In this document: positions 21,353 through 25,805 of the stretch, piece after piece
How the letters are laid out: the number at the start of each line of letters is the position of its first letter
How positions within the stretch are numbered: position 1 is the first letter of the stretch
Origin: an uncultured Chloroflexia bacterium
GTDB lineage: Bacteria > Chloroflexota > Anaerolineae > CG2-30-64-16
Reading direction: 5' to 3'
NCBI GenBank assembly: GCA_963837925.1
Contig: CAWIPK010000005.1
Span: 79,376 to 143,375 of the forward strand
Length of the DNA stretch: 64,000 nt
Notes under the pieces: generated by a model
Databases searched by the model: none
Told to the model about the DNA's origin: nothing
What the model saw: only the letters and a program-made list of their open reading frames with translations
Made by a program: the position numbers and the translations under genes

Positions 21353-22972
21353 ATGTCTGAAGAACGTCTCCAAAAAGTACTGGCGGCCGCCGGCATTGGA
21401 TCGCGGCGCGCTTGTGAAGAGCTGATCATTTCCGGGCGGGTCACCGTCGACGGCCGGGTGGTCAGCGAGTTGGGCGCCAAGGTGGACCCGGTGCAAGCCG
21501 ATATTCGGGTGGACGGGCGGCCCATCGCCGCCGAGCACTACCGCTATATCATGCTCCACAAGCCGGCCGGCTACCTTTCCAACCCCGACCGGCGTGCCGA
21601 ATATCCGGATTGGCAAGAGCTGGTCAAGGTCCCCGAACGTCTCTACGCGGTCGGCCGCCTGGATGTGGACAGCGAGGGCCTTCTATTGTTGACCAACGAC
21701 GGCGGCCTGGCCAACCGCTTGACGCACCCGCGTTACGAACACCCCAAGACCTACCTGGTACAGGTGCGAGGTTACCCCGACCCGCGCAAGCTGCGCCGGA
21801 TGCGGCATGGCGTCATGCTGGACGACGGCCCCACCGCCCCGGCGCTGGTTGAGTTGTTGCACACGCCGCCGCCTGAGGTAGAGCAGGGCCGCATGCGGGC
21901 AGAAGAGCAGCGGCGCAGGCGAGCCGGCCTGGAACCCGGCGTGAGTGAGCCCGGCCCGGCCGGCGGCATGCCGCCGGCTCCCCGCGGGCGCGCCCGTCGA
22001 CCCAGGCCGTCCATTTGGCTCAAGATCACCCTGCGCGAGGGACGGAAGCGGCAGTTGCGGCGCATGGTCTCCCTGCTCGGCCATCCGGCGCTAAGGGTAA
22101 TTCGCATCGGCCTGGGCCCGCTGGCCCTCGGCGACTTACGCCCCGGTAAATGGCGCGACCTGTCTGGCGGTGAAGTGCGGGCCCTGCGTGCTCTGGTTCC
22201 CGCCGCAGCCGGCCCCGCTCGGGCGGCCAGGCCGGACCGCTCCGATGAGACCAAGCCGCAGACCGAAAGGAAAACCAGACCGTTGCCTTCCACAATCGCG
22301 ATCGACGGCCCAGCCGCATCGGGCAAAAGCACCATCGGCGGCAGGTTGGCCGATGAACTGGACTATCTGTATTTCGACACCGGCGTGATGTATCGGGCGA
22401 TCACCTGTCTGGCCCTGGCTAGGGGTGTGCCCATCGGCGACGAAGATGCGGTCGGGCAGCTGGCCGAGGAAGTGCGCCTGGATGTGCTATCCCCTACCGT
22501 CGACGACGGTCGTGACGTCACGGTGCTGGCGGATGGCGAGGATATCACCCCGGAGCTGCGCCGGCCGGAGGTCGACGTGGCAGTCTCGCCCGTCTCGGCC
22601 TACCGCCGCGTGCGTGAGGCCTTGACCGCCCAACAGCGCCGGATCGGTGGGGCGGGACAGGTGATTATGGTCGGCCGTGATATCGGCACGGTGGTCATGC
22701 CCGGTGCCGAACTGAAGATCTATCTCGACGCTGCCCTGCGTGAGCGGGCCCACCGGCGCTACCTGGAGTGCATCGCGCGCGGCCAGCAAACCACTGAGGA
22801 TGAGGTGGCGGAGCGGTTGCGCCGCCGCGACCAGTTTGATTCCAGCCGTCAGCACGCCCCCCTCTCGGTTGCGCCGGATGCCATTGTCGTCGACAGCACC
22901 AGCCTGAGCATCGAGCAGGTGATGGAGCAGATGAGGGTGTTGGTCAGGCGCTGGGGAGAGCGGAAGAAGTAG
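21353..22972 (+). CDS. Fusion of a 23S rRNA pseudouridine synthase (RluB/RsuA family: S4 domain plus catalytic domain) and cytidylate kinase in one ORF.
   Basis: N-terminal S4 (LQKVLAAAGIGSRRACEELIISGRVTVDGR). PseudoU_synth_2 core (HYRYIMLHKPAGYLS ... RLYAVGRLDVDSEGLLLLTNDG ... YLVQVRGYP), with a low-complexity Arg/Pro insert. C-terminal Cmk P-loop (TIAIDGPAASGKSTIGGRLADELDYLYFDTGVMYRA ... GRDIGTVVMPGAELKIYL). 539 aa. Confidence 0.8.
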   Translation: MSEERLQKVLAAAGIGSRRACEELIISGRVTVDGRVVSELGAKVDPVQADIRVDGRPIAAEHYRYIMLHKPAGYLSNPDRRAEYPDWQELVKVPERLYAVGRLDVDSEGLLLLTNDGGLANRLTHPRYEHPKTYLVQVRGYPDPRKLRRMRHGVMLDDGPTAPALVELLHTPPPEVEQGRMRAEEQRRRRAGLEPGVSEPGPAGGMPPAPRGRARRPRPSIWLKITLREGRKRQLRRMVSLLGHPALRVIRIGLGPLALGDLRPGKWRDLSGGEVRALRALVPAAAGPARAARPDRSDETKPQTERKTRPLPSTIAIDGPAASGKSTIGGRLADELDYLYFDTGVMYRAITCLALARGVPIGDEDAVGQLAEEVRLDVLSPTVDDGRDVTVLADGEDITPELRRPEVDVAVSPVSAYRRVREALTAQQRRIGGAGQVIMVGRDIGTVVMPGAELKIYLDAALRERAHRRYLECIARGQQTTEDEVAERLRRRDQFDSSRQHAPLSVAPDAIVVDSTSLSIEQVMEQMRVLVRRWGERKK

Positions 22973-23659
22973 TTGAAGAGAAGTCACATCCCAATCGGCC
23001 GCTACATCTGGCAAGTCGTCCTCGTGTCCCTTGCCTGGCTGTTCGCGCGCGTTACTGCCCGCGAAACGCGGCTCGTGCCGGCTGAGGGCGCCGGGATCAT
23101 CTACTACAATCACATCCACTGGACGGATCCGCCGCTGATCTGCGCCAAGTCGCCTCGCTATGCCGTGCCCCTGGCCAAGATCGAAGCCCGCGGCTGGCCG
23201 GTAGTCGGCTGGCTGCTGCGCTGGTATCACGCGATCTTTATAGCGCGTGGCGTGGTCGACCGCACGGCGCTGAGGGCCACCTGGCAGGTACTGGATGACG
23301 GCGATGTCGCCGTCATCTCCCCGGAAGGACACCGCAGCGAGGATGGCGGGCTGCAGGCGGCCAAAGAGGGCCTGGCCTTCATCGCGCATCACAACCCCGA
23401 CTGCTGGTTGATACCGTGTGCCGTCACCGGCACCCCGGCTTTTGACTTCAAGCACTTCTGGCGCCGTCCCCGCATCACCCTTACCTTCGGCCGTCCATTC
23501 CGTTTCTGCTGGCCGGAGGGCAAGGCCAGCCGAGACGTGCAGCGAGCGATGACAGATGAGGCCATGACCCAATTCCTGCCGCTCTTGCCGCCCGACATGC
23601 ACGGCGATTACGCCGGTCGGGACCCGTCTGCCGTCCGCTGGCTTGAGATTCTGGTCTGA
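22973..23659 (+). CDS. plsC: 1-acyl-sn-glycerol-3-phosphate acyltransferase (PlsC family).
   Basis: TTG start immediately after the cmk stop. HX4D-region equivalent (IYYNHIHWTDPP) and acyltransferase motif (VISPEGHRS). 228 aa. Confidence 0.65.
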   Translation: MKRSHIPIGRYIWQVVLVSLAWLFARVTARETRLVPAEGAGIIYYNHIHWTDPPLICAKSPRYAVPLAKIEARGWPVVGWLLRWYHAIFIARGVVDRTALRATWQVLDDGDVAVISPEGHRSEDGGLQAAKEGLAFIAHHNPDCWLIPCAVTGTPAFDFKHFWRRPRITLTFGRPFRFCWPEGKASRDVQRAMTDEAMTQFLPLLPPDMHGDYAGRDPSAVRWLEILV

Positions 23660-23737
23660 GGGACGGTGCGCCGGGCCGCAGGCCGTGTTTTCTGGAATCG
23701 TGCTTCTAGAAGCCGCTTCTTTCCCTTACGATACTGA

Positions 23738-23766
23738 TTGCGTATTGGCCGGTTTTAGAGTATAGT
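23738..23766 (+). promoter_or_regulatory. Sigma70-like promoter for the glmS leader: TTGCGT (23738-23743), 17-nt spacer, TATAGT (23761-23766).
   Basis: Predicted TSS ~23773, i.e. ~17 nt upstream of the ribozyme cleavage-site motif AGCGCC at 23791. Confidence 0.45.
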
Positions 23767-23784
23767 GAGCCAGTATTCTCTGGG

Positions 23785-23950
23785 GAGAATAGCGCCAGGT
23801 CCGAGCCCAGGTGGGTCGGATGACGAGGTGGAGGTTCCTCACCGCGAGGTGAGTGCTAACCCCGGGCATCTCCGGGGGAACATCGAACAGATCGGCGGAC
23901 GCCTCCAGGACCAGCCACGGTCCTCTTCTCCCCCAACCATATACGTCAGG
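23785..23950 (+). ncRNA. glmS ribozyme (GlcN6P-responsive self-cleaving riboswitch) in the glmS 5' leader.
   Basis: A|GCGCCAGG at 23791. Core strings GACGAGGTGGAGGTT, ACATCGAA and CGGCGGACGCCTCCAGG correspond to the conserved B. subtilis-type core GACGAGGAUGGAGGUU / AUCGAA / CGGCGGAUGCCUCCCGG, with an inserted GC-rich hairpin in the variable loop. The element ends in CAGGGGGACC just before the glmS ATG. Confidence 0.7.
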
Positions 23951-23957
23951 GGGACCC

Positions 23958-25805
23958 ATGTGTGGAATCGTCGCTTACATTGGGCCGCGTAATGCCGCGC
24001 AGATCATCATGGACGGACTGCGCCGGCTCGAATACCGCGGCTATGATTCGGCCGGCATTGCCGTCATTCAGGATGGGCACATTTCCGTCCGGCGCGACGT
24101 CGGCAAGCTGAGCAATCTGGCCCAACGCCTGGCCGAGGCGCCCATCACCGGGCAGACGGGCATCGGCCATACCCGTTGGGCCACCCACGGCCGGCCCAGC
24201 GAGCGCAACGCCCACCCGCACTCCGACGGCAATGGCGGGGTCGTGGTGGTGCAGAACGGCATCGTCGAGAACTTCCGCGAGCTGCGCGCTGAATTGGAGG
24301 CGGAAGGGATCCAGTTTCGCTCCGACACCGACACGGAGGTTATCGCCCATCTGATCGGGCTCTACTACAGCCCCGAGCGTGCCCTGAGCGAAGCGGTGCG
24401 GCTGGCCCTGCGGCGACTGCGCGGACCGAGCGCCATCGTCGCCCTGTCGGCGCGCGAGCCGGACACCCTGGTCGCGGCCCGCCTGGGCAACGCCGGTGGA
24501 GTAGCGATCGGCTTCGGCGAGGGCGAGATGTTCGTCGCCTCCGACATGCCGGCGATTCTGGAACACACCCGGCTCATATCCTTTCTCGAAAACGGTCAGA
24601 TGGCCCTGCTGACCCGCGCCGGTGCCACTTTCAGCCGGCTGGATGGGGAGATCATCCATCCCCGGGTGCAGGACATCCCCTGGGATGCCGTCTCGGCCGC
24701 CAAGGGGGCCTACAAGCACTTCATGCAGAAGGAGATCTACGAACAGGCCGGCTCGTTGACCGACACCATTCGCGGGCGGGTCGACCTGGGGCAGGGCGAG
24801 GTCTGTCTCGAAGAAGTTCACATAACGGAAGAGATGGCGCGCGGGCTGACGGAAGTGGTCGGTGTTGCCTGTGGGACTTCGCATCACTCCGAGCTCGTCG
24901 GCGCCTTCATGTTCGAACAGCTCGCCCGCTTGCCGGTGCGGGTCGAATACGCCTCCGAGTTTCGCTATCGCGATCCGGTGATCGGCCGCAGCTCGCTTCT
25001 GCTCGCCATCACCCAGTCCGGCGAGACGGTGGACACCCTGGCAGCGATGGAAGAGGGCAGGGATAAGGGTGCTCACCTGCTCTCGATCGTCAACGCCATC
25101 GGCAGCCAGGCGGCGCGTGTCTCCGACAGCGTCGTCTACATGCACACCGGTCCCGAGATCGGCGTTGCCTCCACCAAGGCTTTCACGGCTTCCCTGGTCG
25201 ACCAATACCTGCTCGCAGTCAGCCTGGGCACGCTGCGCGGCACCCTGCCGGCCGAGCGGCGCCGGGCCTTGCTCGACGACCTGGCCGCCCTGCCGGCGCT
25301 GGTCGGGCGGCTGCTCGAGCCCTCAGGGCAGGAGTTCTACCGGCAGTTGGCCCAGACCTTCTTCCAACACACCGACTTTCTTTACCTCGGCCGGGGCGTC
25401 AACTTCCCCATCGCTCTCGAAGGCGCGCTGAAGCTCAAGGAGATCAGTTACATCCATGCCGAGGGCTACCCGGCCGGCGAGATGAAACACGGCCCAATCG
25501 CCCTGATCGACGAGCACATGCCGGTGGTCGCCATCGCGCCGCGTGACCGGGTTTACGACAAGATGATCAGCCAGATCGAGCAGGTCAAGGCGCGCGGCGG
25601 CATCGTGATCGCCGTCGCGGACGAGGATGACGACTCCATCCGTACCAAGGCGGACTACATTCTGCCCATCCCGCACGCAGCCGAGCTGCTGACCCCGGTG
25701 CTGGCGGTGGTCCCACTGCAACTGTTGGCCTACTACATCGCCGTCCGCCGCGGCGCCGACGTCGACCAGCCGCGCAATTTGGCCAAGAGCGTCACGGTGG
25801 AGTGA
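23958..25805 (+). CDS. glmS: Glutamine--fructose-6-phosphate aminotransferase (isomerizing).
   Basis: MCGIVAYIG N-terminal nucleophile Cys start. Glutaminase domain plus two SIS domains. The C-terminus ends ...NLAKSVTVE. The ORF is open upstream to 23853, but the catalytic Cys must be residue 2. Confidence 0.95.
   Translation: MCGIVAYIGPRNAAQIIMDGLRRLEYRGYDSAGIAVIQDGHISVRRDVGKLSNLAQRLAEAPITGQTGIGHTRWATHGRPSERNAHPHSDGNGGVVVVQNGIVENFRELRAELEAEGIQFRSDTDTEVIAHLIGLYYSPERALSEAVRLALRRLRGPSAIVALSAREPDTLVAARLGNAGGVAIGFGEGEMFVASDMPAILEHTRLISFLENGQMALLTRAGATFSRLDGEIIHPRVQDIPWDAVSAAKGAYKHFMQKEIYEQAGSLTDTIRGRVDLGQGEVCLEEVHITEEMARGLTEVVGVACGTSHHSELVGAFMFEQLARLPVRVEYASEFRYRDPVIGRSSLLLAITQSGETVDTLAAMEEGRDKGAHLLSIVNAIGSQAARVSDSVVYMHTGPEIGVASTKAFTASLVDQYLLAVSLGTLRGTLPAERRRALLDDLAALPALVGRLLEPSGQEFYRQLAQTFFQHTDFLYLGRGVNFPIALEGALKLKEISYIHAEGYPAGEMKHGPIALIDEHMPVVAIAPRDRVYDKMISQIEQVKARGGIVIAVADEDDDSIRTKADYILPIPHAAELLTPVLAVVPLQLLAYYIAVRRGADVDQPRNLAKSVTVE

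What the first reader, a model, noticed from the sequence alone, without database searches (positions are those of the whole stretch)
23785..23950. glmS ribozyme with an expanded GC-rich peripheral hairpin in a high-GC, non-Firmicute-looking genome
The leader of glmS contains the cleavage-site motif AGCGCC and the conserved core strings (GACGAGG.GGAGGUU ... AUCGAA ... CGGCGGAcGCCUCCaGG) of the glucosamine-6-phosphate ribozyme. It carries a ~43-nt GC-rich insertion where the B. subtilis element has a short loop. A predicted promoter places the TSS ~17 nt upstream of the cleavage site, consistent with ribozyme biology. It is useful both as a regulatory annotation and as a phylogenetic marker pointing away from Actinobacteria and towards Chloroflexota or Deinococcota.
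Basis: partly seen in the sequence, partly recalled or inferred. Interest (0 to 1): 0.55.

Follow-up and report, generated by a model that had tools for sequence, protein, structure and literature searches.

The report
Stripped-down glmS ribozyme, Chloroflexota type
The leader of the glmS gene really is a glucosamine-6-phosphate ribozyme, of a Chloroflexota-specific build (two extra hairpins in the core, no P4 domain) whose leader, a pyrimidine tract and the ribosome-binding site look wired so that self-cleavage could also shut off translation.

Summary
Confirmed. Rfam RF00234 (glmS) matches window 23780-23963 (+) over the full model, at 38.0 bits against a gathering score of 37 (E 2.4e-5). 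It ends at the start of a bona fide glmS gene (23958-25805).

The "expanded hairpin" is a 45-nt insertion (23837-23881) made of two hairpins inside the P2 loop. It is not a one-off. The same module occurs in 54 Chloroflexota genome loci, and in all 45 ribozymes found upstream of the closest metagenomic GlmS homologues. Both hairpins covary.

- The canonical P4/P4.1 accessory domain is absent here, and also in relatives L080 (93% GlmS identity) and L081 (81%).
- A purine run upstream of the cleavage site (23782-89) pairs with a pyrimidine tract after P3 (23926-33). I call this helix "P0". It covaries across about 85 loci.
- The same tract is complementary to the Shine-Dalgarno sequence (23949-54), and the two pairings exclude each other.

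I infer that cleavage releases the leader strand and lets the tract sequester the Shine-Dalgarno sequence. This is supported by modelling only (probability about 0.4).

The ribozyme itself is a known kind. This architecture is a new variant of it.

The parts
23738..23743 (+). -35-like hexamer TTGCGT
   Evidence: Read from the sequence. Identical in L080 with the same 17-nt spacing while the flanks diverge. Not called by the consensus scan.
23761..23766 (+). -10-like hexamer TATAGT; implied TSS about 23772-23774
   Evidence: The TSS is inferred from the usual spacing of about 7 nt and has not been mapped.
23773..23791 (+). Leader, which is the predicted 5' cleavage fragment (GUAUUCUCUGGGGAGAAUA). 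It can also fold on itself (23774-80 with 23785-91, 7 bp, -5.3 kcal/mol).
   Evidence: Identical to L080 from 23774 to the cleavage site. Hairpin energy.
23782..23789 (+). P0 5' strand GGGGAGAA. It pairs with 23926-23933.
   Evidence: 8 Watson-Crick pairs, -13.2 kcal/mol. In the MFE. Predicted independently by RNAalifold for window, L080 and L081. Own-versus-cross tests.
23791..23792 (+). Predicted scissile bond between A-1 (23791) and G1 (23792)
   Evidence: Position in the Rfam alignment, and the AGCGCC motif conserved in relatives. Cleavage itself was not tested.
23793..23796 (+). P2.2 5' strand CGCC. It pairs with GGCG at 23894-23897 (pseudoknot).
   Evidence: Pairs form in 98% of cells of alignment A1; invariant.
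23799..23821 (+). P1 hairpin
   Evidence: 5 of 6 pairs show changes on both sides across 46 sequences. Compensatory changes against L080.
23822..23828 (+). Core strand GACGAGG. Its CGA (23824-26) pairs with UCG 23883-85 (P2.1 pseudoknot).
   Evidence: The P2.1 pairs are named C38-G55 and G39-C54 in B. subtilis numbering (PMC11602151).
23830..23834 (+). P2 5' strand GGAGG. It pairs with CCUCC at 23902-23906.
   Evidence: It is invariant, partly because the search pattern imposed it.
23837..23881 (+). 45-nt lineage-specific insertion in the P2 loop. Hairpin a is 23838-53 (GCGA loop), linker UGCUAA, hairpin b is 23860-77, linker GAAC.
   Evidence: Rfam alignment shows 53 nt where the consensus has 8. 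4 of 7 pairs in hairpin a and 4 of 4 in hairpin b show changes on both sides. The module is present in 54 Chloroflexota loci and 45 of 45 metagenomic ribozymes.
23882..23899 (+). Core 3' strands AUCGAA...UCGGCGGA (3' strands of P2.1 and P2.2)
23907..23924 (+). P3 hairpin (6 bp, loop AGCCAC)
   Evidence: 5 of 6 pairs covary. The loop keeps the GCCAC that pairs with GUGGC (P3.1) in relatives.
23925..23934 (+). Pyrimidine tract CUUCUCCCCC. 23926-33 is the P0 3' strand. 23929-34 (UCCCCC) is the anti-SD strand.
   Evidence: The two pairings share 23929-33.
23949..23954 (+). Shine-Dalgarno GGGGGA. It pairs with 23929-34 (6 bp, 14-nt loop). Rfam's alignment places this hairpin where P4 belongs.
   Evidence: The same arrangement is seen in L080 and L081.
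23962..23965 (+). GUGG in glmS codons 2-3; a possible P3.1 3' strand pairing with CCAC at 23915-18
   Evidence: Only 4 bp, read from the sequence. It sits in the topologically correct place after the P4-like hairpin. Speculative.
23958..25805 (+). glmS coding sequence (615 aa)

Best explanation
This is a GlcN6P-dependent self-cleaving glmS ribozyme in the 5' UTR of glmS, in an Anaerolineae-like Chloroflexota genome.

Shown:
- The canonical double-pseudoknot core (P1, P2, P2.1, P2.2) and P3 are intact.
- A conserved two-hairpin module is inserted in the P2 loop.
- The canonical P4/P4.1 accessory domain is absent.
- The leader segment 23782-89, upstream of the scissile bond, pairs with a pyrimidine tract directly after P3. 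This helix (P0) is conserved by covariation throughout Chloroflexota glmS leaders.
- The same tract is complementary to the Shine-Dalgarno sequence, in an overlapping register.

Inferred mechanism:
1. Transcription starts at about 23773.
2. P0 forms as soon as the tract is made, which leaves the SD free. This is the ON state.
3. When GlcN6P is high, the RNA cleaves between A23791 and G23792.
4. The 19-nt 5' fragment carrying the P0 strand is no longer tethered. It can fold into its own hairpin and leave.
5. The tract pairs with the SD (23929-34 with 23949-54). Translation initiation falls, and the 5'-OH mRNA is left exposed to 5'-to-3' decay.

My probabilities: ribozyme identity about 0.95; negative feedback by cleavage about 0.85; the cleavage-triggered SD-sequestration step about 0.4-0.45.
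For: **Identity.** Rfam GA hit and gene context. P2.1 and P2.2 pair. P1, P3 and both insertion hairpins covary: 93% of cells paired, 18 pairs with double changes, 0 of 500 shuffles as high, slid controls 39-59%.

**Selection on this particular build.** L080 (93% GlmS identity) and L081 (81%) share the P4-less layout and show compensatory changes in P1 and hairpin b.

**P0.**
- Cognate leader-tract duplexes are stronger than non-cognate ones in two independently gathered sets: -13.7 vs -11.5 kcal/mol and -12.9 vs -11.0, both with permutation p<1e-4.
- The result holds for 37 mutually diverged representatives: -12.3 vs -9.8, and 7.1 vs 6.1 bp, p<2e-5.
- Shuffled leaders give -9.4.
- RNAalifold predicts P0 on its own.

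**Tract:SD pairing.**
- Cognate pairs beat cross-locus pairs.
- Contiguous helices are longer than with other windows from the same locus that contain the same 5-mer SD core: 6.2 vs 5.1 bp Watson-Crick, p=5e-8, with 44% of loci in the top decile.
- The P0 and SD footprints on the tract overlap by at least 2 nt in 82 of 85 loci.

**Modelling.**
- With the native core imposed, the window precursor prefers the P0 state (-76.0 vs -72.0 kcal/mol). The 3' product adopts the anti-SD:SD hairpin.
- With the core replaced by a surrogate hairpin, predicted SD accessibility falls from 0.31 to 0.15 across 82 loci on removal of the leader (p=6e-11). No locus rises by more than 0.2. With a shuffled leader it is 0.20. 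For the window it falls from 0.71 to 0.17.
Against: - No experiment: cleavage, ligand dependence and SD occlusion are all untested.
- The Rfam score is only 1 bit above the gathering score.
- An energy-based control shows no excess. The real SD windows pair with the tract no better than other windows from the same locus that contain the same SD core (median percentile 0.47, p=0.79; the window itself is at 0.77).
- Unconstrained folding of the longer window precursor already shows the anti-SD:SD hairpin in its MFE. The unconstrained ensemble shift across loci is modest.
- Fold z-scores are unremarkable, -0.5 to -1.
- In many relatives the SD lies 130-350 nt from the tract.
- In about a third of loci the model predicts no change.
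- Three loci (L022, L032, L079) lack the purine leader.
- The SD complementarity in the window is only 6 bp, and any CCUCC-like tract will match any SD.
- P0 may be purely architectural.
- I could not read McCown et al. 2011, so some of this may already be described.
Confidence: 0.5

Rival explanations
1. It is a genuine glmS ribozyme that regulates only in the classical way: cleavage leaves a 5'-OH that an RNase J-type 5' exonuclease degrades. P0 and the insertion are purely architectural clamps that replace the lost P4 domain. The tract-SD complementarity is incidental, arising because a pyrimidine tract meets a purine-rich SD.
For: - P0 also exists in relatives that keep a complete P4.
- The energy-based same-core control is null.
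- SD distances reach up to 350 nt.
- The canonical mechanism is the only one documented (PMC10907184).
- Many relatives carry a strong 16S-complementary GAAAGGAGGUGA motif in the leader. It would act as a 5' stabiliser that cleavage severs, which fits a decay-only logic.
Against: - Contiguous tract:SD helices exceed same-core controls and cross-locus pairings.
- The tract keeps a CCUCC-type extension beyond what P0 uses.
- The two footprints overlap almost everywhere.
- Removing the leader specifically lowers predicted SD accessibility.
- In the window clade the SD is itself the 3' strand of the only helix left where P4 should be.
Confidence: 0.35
2. It is a decaying or inactive relic. Loss of P4/P4.1 (the IL4 purine stack on P2.1 and the L4-P1 contact) has disabled the ribozyme, and glmS here is controlled by other means.
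For: - P4/P4.1 is absent.
- The accessory domain is what allows activity at physiological Mg2+ (PMC1635283; PMC11602151).
- Some close GlmS relatives (L082-L085, 75-78% identity) have no ribozyme at all.
- The Rfam score is marginal.
Against: - Every core nucleotide string and both pseudoknots are intact.
- The same reduced layout is kept in L080 and L081, with compensatory substitutions in P1 and hairpin b, while loops and flanks drift.
- The leader is 100% conserved against L080 although the promoter flanks have diverged.
Confidence: 0.07
3. It is a chance resemblance to the glmS model in GC-rich DNA.
For: - The score is 1 bit above the gathering score.
- The degenerate core pattern also hit 22 loci in which neither the insertion module nor a downstream glmS was found. 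They come from Actinomycetota, Alphaproteobacteria and other GC-rich groups, and only 2 of them have an AGCGCC upstream.
Against: - E 2.4e-5 for the window, and it is the only hit.
- Exact position and strand before glmS.
- About 100 homologous leaders share covarying helices.
Confidence: 0.01

Closest known systems
Canonical glmS ribozyme of Firmicutes (Rfam RF00234; B. subtilis, B. anthracis, T. tengcongensis)
   Same: - A^GCGCC cleavage site.
- P1 and the P2/P2.1/P2.2 double pseudoknot, with GACGAGG, AUCGA and GGCGGA strands.
- P3.
- Location in the glmS 5' UTR.
- Expected GlcN6P cofactor use and negative feedback (PMC11602151).
   Different: - 45-nt two-hairpin insertion between the P2 5' strand and the P2.1 3' strand.
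- No P4/P4.1, IL4 or L4.
- An 8-bp helix that uses nucleotides -3 to -10. The canonical ribozyme begins 1 nt before the cleavage site (PMC1635283).
- The SD and start codon lie inside the Rfam match.
- The three Oscillospiraceae leaders retrieved here have a single different hairpin at the same site and no P0.
Full-size Chloroflexota glmS ribozymes
   Same: - Same insertion module (one or two hairpins, UUCC...GNRA...GG-CUAA-CC...GG-GAAA).
- Same P0 and the same pyrimidine tract after P3.
- Same P3 loop GCCAC.
   Different: - They keep P4/P4.1 with CAAA/ACAA internal-loop adenines, a GNRA L4 and a GUGGC P3.1 strand.
- They place the SD 120-350 nt further on.
- Many also carry a GAAAGGAGGUGA motif 30-50 nt before the cleavage site, which the window lacks.
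Deinococcus-Thermus structural variants of glmS ribozymes (McCown, Roth and Breaker 2011, RNA 17:728)
   Same: As I recall the abstract, these variants carry additional stems within the catalytic core and altered core-supporting substructures. That is the same kind of deviation as seen here.
   Different: Different phylum. I could not read the paper or obtain those sequences. Whether the insertion is homologous, and whether P0 or the SD pairing was described, is unknown. This rests on memory only.
SD-sequestering (translational) riboswitch expression platforms and engineered ribozyme switches that mask or unmask an RBS
   Same: A three-element logic with mutually exclusive helices: anti-anti-SD, anti-SD and SD.
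   Different: Here the trigger would be irreversible strand scission that physically removes the anti-anti-SD strand, not ligand-induced refolding. [quoted passage not shown]

Membership tests
glmS ribozyme (Rfam RF00234) | Covariance-model score at or above the curated gathering score | tested here: met
   38.0 bits against GA 37, E 2.4e-5, full model 1-167. Marginal. 8 of 20 related leaders fall below GA.
glmS ribozyme (Rfam RF00234) | Cleavage-site motif A^GCGCC followed by the P1 hairpin | tested here: met
   AGCGCC at 23791-96 and P1 at 23799-23821. P1 covaries, with 5 of 6 pairs changed on both sides.
glmS ribozyme (Rfam RF00234) | Double pseudoknot: P2, P2.1 (CGA/UCG) and P2.2 (CGCC/GGCG), with conserved GACGAGG, AUCGA and GGCGGA | tested here: met
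   All pairs can form. 99% of cells are paired in A1 against 15-35% when slid. They are invariant, so there is no covariation, and the 3' strands were imposed by the search pattern.
glmS ribozyme (Rfam RF00234) | Accessory domain: P3 with the P3.1 pseudoknot | tested here: inconclusive
   P3 is present and covaries. The only P3.1 candidate is 4 bp, CCAC 23915-18 with GUGG 23962-65 inside glmS codons 2-3.
glmS ribozyme (Rfam RF00234) | Accessory domain: P4/P4.1 with the A-rich internal loop IL4 docking on P2.1 and the L4 tetraloop docking on P1 | tested here: not met
   Only 15 nt lie where the model has 37. The single hairpin there is UCCCCC/GGGGGA, which is the anti-SD:SD pairing. This domain is accessory rather than catalytic (PMC1635283), so its absence lowers typicality but does not exclude membership.
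glmS ribozyme (Rfam RF00234) | Located in the 5' UTR of glmS on the coding strand | tested here: met
   The hit ends at the glmS start codon at 23958. The product has GATase plus two SIS domains.
glmS ribozyme (Rfam RF00234) | GlcN6P-dependent self-cleavage yielding 2',3'-cyclic phosphate and 5'-OH ends | not testable with these tools
   Requires an in vitro cleavage assay.
glmS ribozyme (Rfam RF00234) | Down-regulation through RNase J-type decay of the 5'-OH product | not tested
   No RNase J gene was sought, and only a 64-kb window of the genome is available.
Chloroflexota-type glmS ribozyme (operational class defined here) | Structured insertion between the P2 5' strand and AUCGA (UUCC-stem-GNRA-stem, with or without CUAA-stem-loop-stem, then GAAA) | tested here: met
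   Window 23837-81. Present in 54 genome loci and 45 of 45 metagenomic ribozymes. Both hairpins covary.
Chloroflexota-type glmS ribozyme (operational class defined here) | P0: a purine run 1-5 nt upstream of A-1 paired to a pyrimidine tract just 3' of P3 | tested here: met
   Window 23782-89 with 23926-33, 8 bp. Family-wide own-versus-cross tests give p<1e-4 in two sets and p<2e-5 with 37 diverged representatives. RNAalifold also predicts it.
SD-sequestering translational switch | An anti-SD strand complementary to the SD, mutually exclusive with an alternative pairing | tested here: met
   23929-34 pairs with 23949-54 (6 bp) and shares 23929-33 with P0. Footprints overlap by at least 2 nt in 82 of 85 loci.
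SD-sequestering translational switch | Evolutionary support that the SD pairing is selected | tested here: inconclusive
   Positive by contiguous helix length against same-core controls (p=5e-8) and by cross-locus permutation. Null by duplex energy against same-core controls (p=0.79).
SD-sequestering translational switch | A signal-dependent change in ribosome access | not testable with these tools
   Thermodynamic models only. Needs toeprinting, probing or reporters.

The most novel reading that the evidence does not exclude
Chloroflexota glmS ribozymes carry a real expression platform. The strand that keeps an anti-SD tract occupied (P0) lies on the 5' side of the scissile bond, so GlcN6P-triggered cleavage physically removes it and the tract then sequesters the ribosome-binding site. 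This would be a cleavage-operated, irreversible translational switch. The window's P4-less version would be its most compact natural form, with the SD helix sitting where P4 used to be.
Probability: 0.4. Interest if true: 0.75.

Novelty: new variant of a known kind. Interest (0 to 1): 0.5.

Why it matters
- **Annotation.** glmS here is under ribozyme control. The Rfam model only just detects this lineage: the window is 1 bit above threshold and 8 of 20 relatives fall below it. A lineage-specific model would recover many unannotated ribozymes.
- **RNA architecture.** This is a natural glmS ribozyme without P4/P4.1, but with a core insertion and a helix spanning the cleavage site. It is a test case for how peripheral elements are swapped while a catalytic core is kept (compare PMC11602151).
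- **Mechanism.** Current expert opinion is that the glmS RNA has no expression platform and acts only through RNase J-type decay (PMC10907184). If cleavage here also flips an SD-sequestering switch, that view changes. It would also show how the ribozyme can regulate where 5'-OH-dependent decay is weak.
- **Taxonomy.** The insertion module is a practical signature of Chloroflexota glmS leaders.

Tried and rejected
- **Promoter and terminator scan of 23400-24100.** It found nothing. I keep the promoter only because it is conserved in L080.
- **Fold z-scores.** Values of -0.5 to -1 are not informative in this GC-rich RNA.
- **Core pattern scan of genome contigs.** It also returned 22 loci with no module and no glmS. 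I treated these as chance matches. Core invariance in my alignments is partly imposed by that pattern and is not used as evidence.
- **Pair counts for P0 on alignment A1.** Abandoned. MAFFT leaves the leader and tract ungapped and out of register between lineages, so I used register-free own-versus-cross tests instead.
- **Energy-based same-core control for tract:SD.** Null. Reported as evidence against.
- **Idea that the upstream GAAAGGAGGUGA motif of relatives heads a small ORF.** Set aside for now: my scan found a start codon 8-19 nt after the motif start in only 12 of 47 loci, and it missed closer ones such as the AUG in GGAGGUGAUG.
- **Idea that GGGGG (SD) with CCCCC (tract) in the window clade is a clean compensatory pair relative to GGAGG with CCUCC.** Not claimed, because the registers are ambiguous.
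- **Literature.** McCown 2011 and 2012 and Ferre-D'Amare 2010 are not held. Seven full-text searches found no description of a leader-tract helix or an SD switch for glmS.
- **Source genome.** The exact GlmS sequence is in the protein collection, on a 364,812-bp contig and unnamed. No encoding contig could be retrieved.
Full report
**Observation**

The window has a single Rfam hit above gathering score. It is RF00234 (glmS ribozyme) at 23780-23963 on the + strand, matching the full model, at 38.0 bits against a gathering score of 37 (E 2.4e-5).

The hit runs into an ORF whose true start is ATG 23958 (MCGIVAYIG...). The ORF is 615 aa, with glutamine amidotransferase and two SIS domains, so it is GlmS. 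The upstream gene is an acyltransferase ending at 23659, and the downstream gene is a methyltransferase. The window is 60-72% GC.

**Anatomy in the window (coordinates verified)**

- Promoter-like TTGCGT (23738-43), 17-nt spacer, TATAGT (23761-66)
- Leader 23773-23791
- Scissile bond A23791/G23792
- P2.2: CGCC 23793-96 with GGCG 23894-97
- P1: 23799-23821
- GACGAGG 23822-28, with P2.1 formed by CGA 23824-26 and UCG 23883-85
- P2: GGAGG 23830-34 with CCUCC 23902-06
- P3: 23907-24
- Pyrimidine tract CUUCUCCCCC 23925-34
- 14-nt loop
- SD GGGGGA 23949-54
- AUG 23958

Between the P2 5' strand and AUCGAA lies a 45-nt insertion (23837-81, 69% GC). It is built from hairpin a (23838-53, GCGA loop), linker UGCUAA, hairpin b (23860-77) and linker GAAC. 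In the Rfam alignment this is 53 nt where the consensus has 8. Only 15 nt lie where the consensus has the 37-nt interior of P4.

**Relatives**

I gathered relatives in two ways.

*Genome set.* A degenerate core pattern that allowed a 22-52-nt gap was scanned over one genome per species and returned 79 loci.
- 54 loci, all from Chloroflexota records (Anaerolineae, Caldilineae, Chloroflexia), carry the same module. It reads UUCC-stem-GNRA-like loop-stem, optionally CUAA-stem-loop-stem, then GAAA.
- Three Oscillospiraceae leaders have a different single hairpin at the same site.
- In the other 22 loci I found neither the module nor a downstream glmS. I treat them as chance matches in GC-rich DNA.
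- 52 loci have glmS right after the match. The closest are Anaerolineae MAGs at 81, 79, 77 and 77% protein identity.

*Metagenome set.* A protein-seeded metagenome search does not depend on any RNA pattern. It gave the 80 closest GlmS homologues.
- 45 of the 79 that could be examined have a ribozyme upstream.
- All 45 carry the insertion, at 23-102 nt.
- Some close relatives (L082-L085, 75-78% identity) have no ribozyme.

**Covariation of the standard helices and the insertion**

The counts below come from the 46-sequence MAFFT alignment A1, which is unaware of structure.
- 93% of cells are paired, against 39-59% when the partner columns are slid.
- 18 of 28 pairs show changes on both sides.
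- None of 500 shuffles reaches the observed values.
- Support comes from P1 (5 of 6 pairs), hairpin a (4 of 7), hairpin b (4 of 4) and P3 (5 of 6).
- P2, P2.1 and P2.2 are invariant and always able to pair. Part of that invariance was imposed by my search pattern.

The insertion is therefore a conserved, structured, lineage-wide module. It is not a local expansion.

**What is missing**

Most Chloroflexota relatives keep a canonical accessory domain. They have P4/P4.1 with CAAA and ACAA internal-loop adenines, a GNRA L4, and a GUGGC strand pairing with GCCAC in the P3 loop. In the crystallised ribozymes these features make the IL4-P2.1 purine stack, the L4-P1 contact and the P3.1 pseudoknot (PMC11602151).

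The window has none of P4/P4.1. From the end of the conserved GGCGGANGCC core strand (23903) to the start codon there are only 54 nt. The same reduced layout occurs in L080 (metagenome contig Ga0209746_1000769, 93% GlmS identity, 56 nt) and L081 (81% identity, 73 nt). The L007/L012/L121 group (92-93 nt) is also reduced.

Between the window and L080, P1 and hairpin b changed in a compensatory way and loops drifted, while the core and leader stayed identical. That argues for a functional RNA and against a relic.

**A helix across the cleavage site (P0)**

GGGGAGAA (23782-89) lies 2 nt before A-1. It is perfectly complementary to UUCUCCCC (23926-33), which starts 1 nt after P3 (-13.2 kcal/mol). 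The pairing is in the MFE of the Rfam-matched stretch. RNAalifold predicts it unprompted for the window, L080 and L081.

Across relatives the helix sits in the same place while its sequence changes. Examples are GGGGAAGA/UCUUCCCC, GGAGAAGCA/UGCUUCUCC, GAGAAGC/GCUUCUC, GGAGGGAAAG/CUUUCCCUCC, GGGAAAGA/UCUUUCCC, GGGAGUU/AACUCCC and GGGCAA/UUGCCC.

Both strands are low-complexity and cannot be aligned in register without using the pairing. I therefore used register-free tests.

| Test | Cognate | Non-cognate or control | Significance |
|---|---|---|---|
| Duplex energy, genome set (46 loci) | -13.7 kcal/mol | -11.5 | p<1e-4 |
| Duplex energy, shuffled leaders | -13.7 kcal/mol | -9.4 | not computed |
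| Duplex energy, metagenome set (40 loci) | -12.9 kcal/mol | -11.0 | p<1e-4 |
| Duplex energy, 37 mutually diverged representatives | -12.3 kcal/mol | -9.8 | p<2e-5 |
| Gap-free helix length, same 37 representatives | 7.1 bp | 6.1 bp | p<2e-5 |

[quoted passage not shown] P0 therefore lies outside the known architecture. The three Firmicute leaders in hand show no equivalent. Three Chloroflexota loci (L022, L032, L079) have a replaced 5' region without it.

**The tract and the Shine-Dalgarno sequence**

The tract is also complementary to the SD. In the window, UCCCCC 23929-34 pairs with GGGGGA 23949-54. This shares five tract nucleotides with P0. Rfam's alignment places this hairpin in the P4 position.

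Evidence for the pairing:
- Across 85 distinct leaders, the P0 footprint and the SD footprint on the tract overlap by at least 2 nt in 82.
- Some complementarities are long: L126 12 bp and L127 10 bp gap-free (RNAduplex extends both to about 13 pairs with bulges), L068 11 bp, L115 10 bp, L146 9 bp.
- Cognate pairs beat cross-locus pairs: -11.3 vs -10.2 kcal/mol, and 7.0 vs 6.4 bp, both p<1e-4.
- I compared each real SD window with other windows in the same locus that contain the same 5-mer SD core. The real windows make longer contiguous helices: 6.2 vs 5.1 bp Watson-Crick, p=5e-8, with 44% of loci in the top decile.

Evidence against:
- The same comparison by duplex energy shows nothing (median percentile 0.47, p=0.79; the window is at 0.77). 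A likely reason is that GC-rich coding windows form bulged duplexes easily.

I regard selection for SD pairing as likely but not established.

**Modelling the consequence of cleavage**

- For the window, I imposed the native helices and kept the pseudoknot strands unpaired. The precursor then prefers the P0 state, with the SD in a hairpin loop, over the leader hairpin plus anti-SD:SD state (-76.0 vs -72.0 kcal/mol). The 3' product adopts the anti-SD:SD hairpin.
- Unconstrained folds are ambiguous. The 184-nt stretch shows P0, while the 203-nt precursor shows the SD hairpin.
- I replaced the ribozyme core by a surrogate hairpin in 82 loci. Predicted SD accessibility falls from 0.31 to 0.15 when the leader is removed (p=6e-11). 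It drops by more than 0.2 in 28 loci and rises by more than 0.2 in none. With shuffled leaders it is 0.20 (p=2.5e-7). For the window it goes from 0.71 to 0.17, for L080 from 0.50 to 0.05, and for L081 from 0.40 to 0.00.
- The fully unconstrained version gives only a modest shift.
- The released 19-nt fragment can fold into its own 7-bp hairpin (-5.3 kcal/mol). That would favour its departure.

**Promoter**

The consensus scan calls nothing. However, TTGCGT-17-TATAGT is identical in L080, while the spacer differs at 5 of 17 positions. The 7 nt after the -10 hexamer differ at 6 of 7, and the upstream DNA differs throughout. From about 23774 to the cleavage site the two sequences are identical.

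There is no terminator-like structure between the ribozyme and glmS.

**Comparison with what is known**

The core, the gene context and the expected chemistry are those of the known glmS ribozyme family, and membership is met on every catalytic-core criterion I could test. The P4/P4.1 accessory criterion is not met.

From memory, McCown et al. 2011 reported Deinococcus-Thermus variants with extra stems in the catalytic core and altered supporting substructures. Insertions of this general kind are therefore probably not new. I could not read that paper.

I found no description of a leader-tract helix or of SD sequestration coupled to glmS cleavage in seven full-text searches. [quoted passage not shown]

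**Verdict**

- As an annotation it is a member of a known family.
- As an architecture it is a new variant of a known kind: core insertion, no P4, P0, and the SD built into the fold.
- The cleavage-operated translational switch is my best mechanistic reading, at a probability of about 0.4. It rests on covariation of P0, mixed comparative evidence for the SD pairing, and thermodynamic models.
- The main rival is that P0 and the insertion are only structural braces and that regulation is by decay alone.

Noticed in passing
Relatives only, e.g. L011, L044, L005, L071, L146, L121: 30-50 nt upstream of the ribozyme cleavage site. Absent from window 23660-23790.: A very strong SD-like motif, GAAAGGAGGUGA, which is the complement of the 16S 3' tail. 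The strict form is in 47 of 84 leaders, peaking at -35 to -49, and weaker AAGGAG forms occur in others. My scan rarely found a start codon at a workable spacing. It looks like a ribosome-binding 5' mRNA stabiliser (compare the cryIIIA STAB-SD, from memory) that ribozyme cleavage would sever from the message.
   Followed up: partly
window 23702-23713; L080 1237-1248: A perfect 12-nt palindrome, GCTTCTAGAAGC, lies about 25 nt upstream of the -35 hexamer. L080 has CCTTCTAGAAGG at the equivalent place, with the outer bases swapped symmetrically so that the dyad is kept. It may be an operator for a transcription factor acting on glmS. A second TTCTAGAA occurs at window 28971.
   Followed up: partly
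L080-L159 (metagenome loci), tested subset: Rfam's glmS model reaches its gathering score in only 12 of 20 Chloroflexota leaders that clearly contain the ribozyme. The window passes by 1 bit. This lineage is therefore under-annotated by standard pipelines.
   Followed up: partly
L082, L083, L084, L085: GlmS homologues at 75-78% identity to the window protein have no ribozyme upstream. In L082, and apparently in L084, an upstream coding region appears to run almost up to glmS. The predicted C-terminus of the L084 upstream ORF resembles that of the window's acyltransferase, by eye. The ribozyme has therefore been lost or gained within this clade.
   Followed up: partly
L032, L036, L039, L022, L079 (Caldilineales-type), between the ribozyme and the glmS SD: Spacers of 100-150 nt are made of tandem GGTAGATTGG-like units followed by their complements (CCAATCTACC). 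They should fold into one long hairpin that brings the SD next to the ribozyme's 3' end.
   Followed up: no
L022, L032, L079: The 5' part of the ribozyme is replaced. A hairpin (GCGATGATTTCAATCATCGC) directly abuts AGCGCA or GGCGCC, there is no purine P0 strand, and complementarity for P1 is poor. These may be a further variant or disabled copies.
   Followed up: no
window 21353-22972 (+): A single 539-aa ORF combines an S4 domain, an RluB-type pseudouridine synthase domain and a cytidylate kinase domain. This is an apparent gene fusion.
   Followed up: no
window 1-64000: No tRNA, rRNA or any other Rfam family reaches its gathering score anywhere in the 64 kb apart from the glmS ribozyme.
   Followed up: no
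L026, L028, L040 (Oscillospiraceae): These Firmicute glmS ribozymes also carry a single hairpin at the same point of the P2 loop, with an unrelated sequence. The site seems to tolerate insertions in more than one phylum.
   Followed up: no
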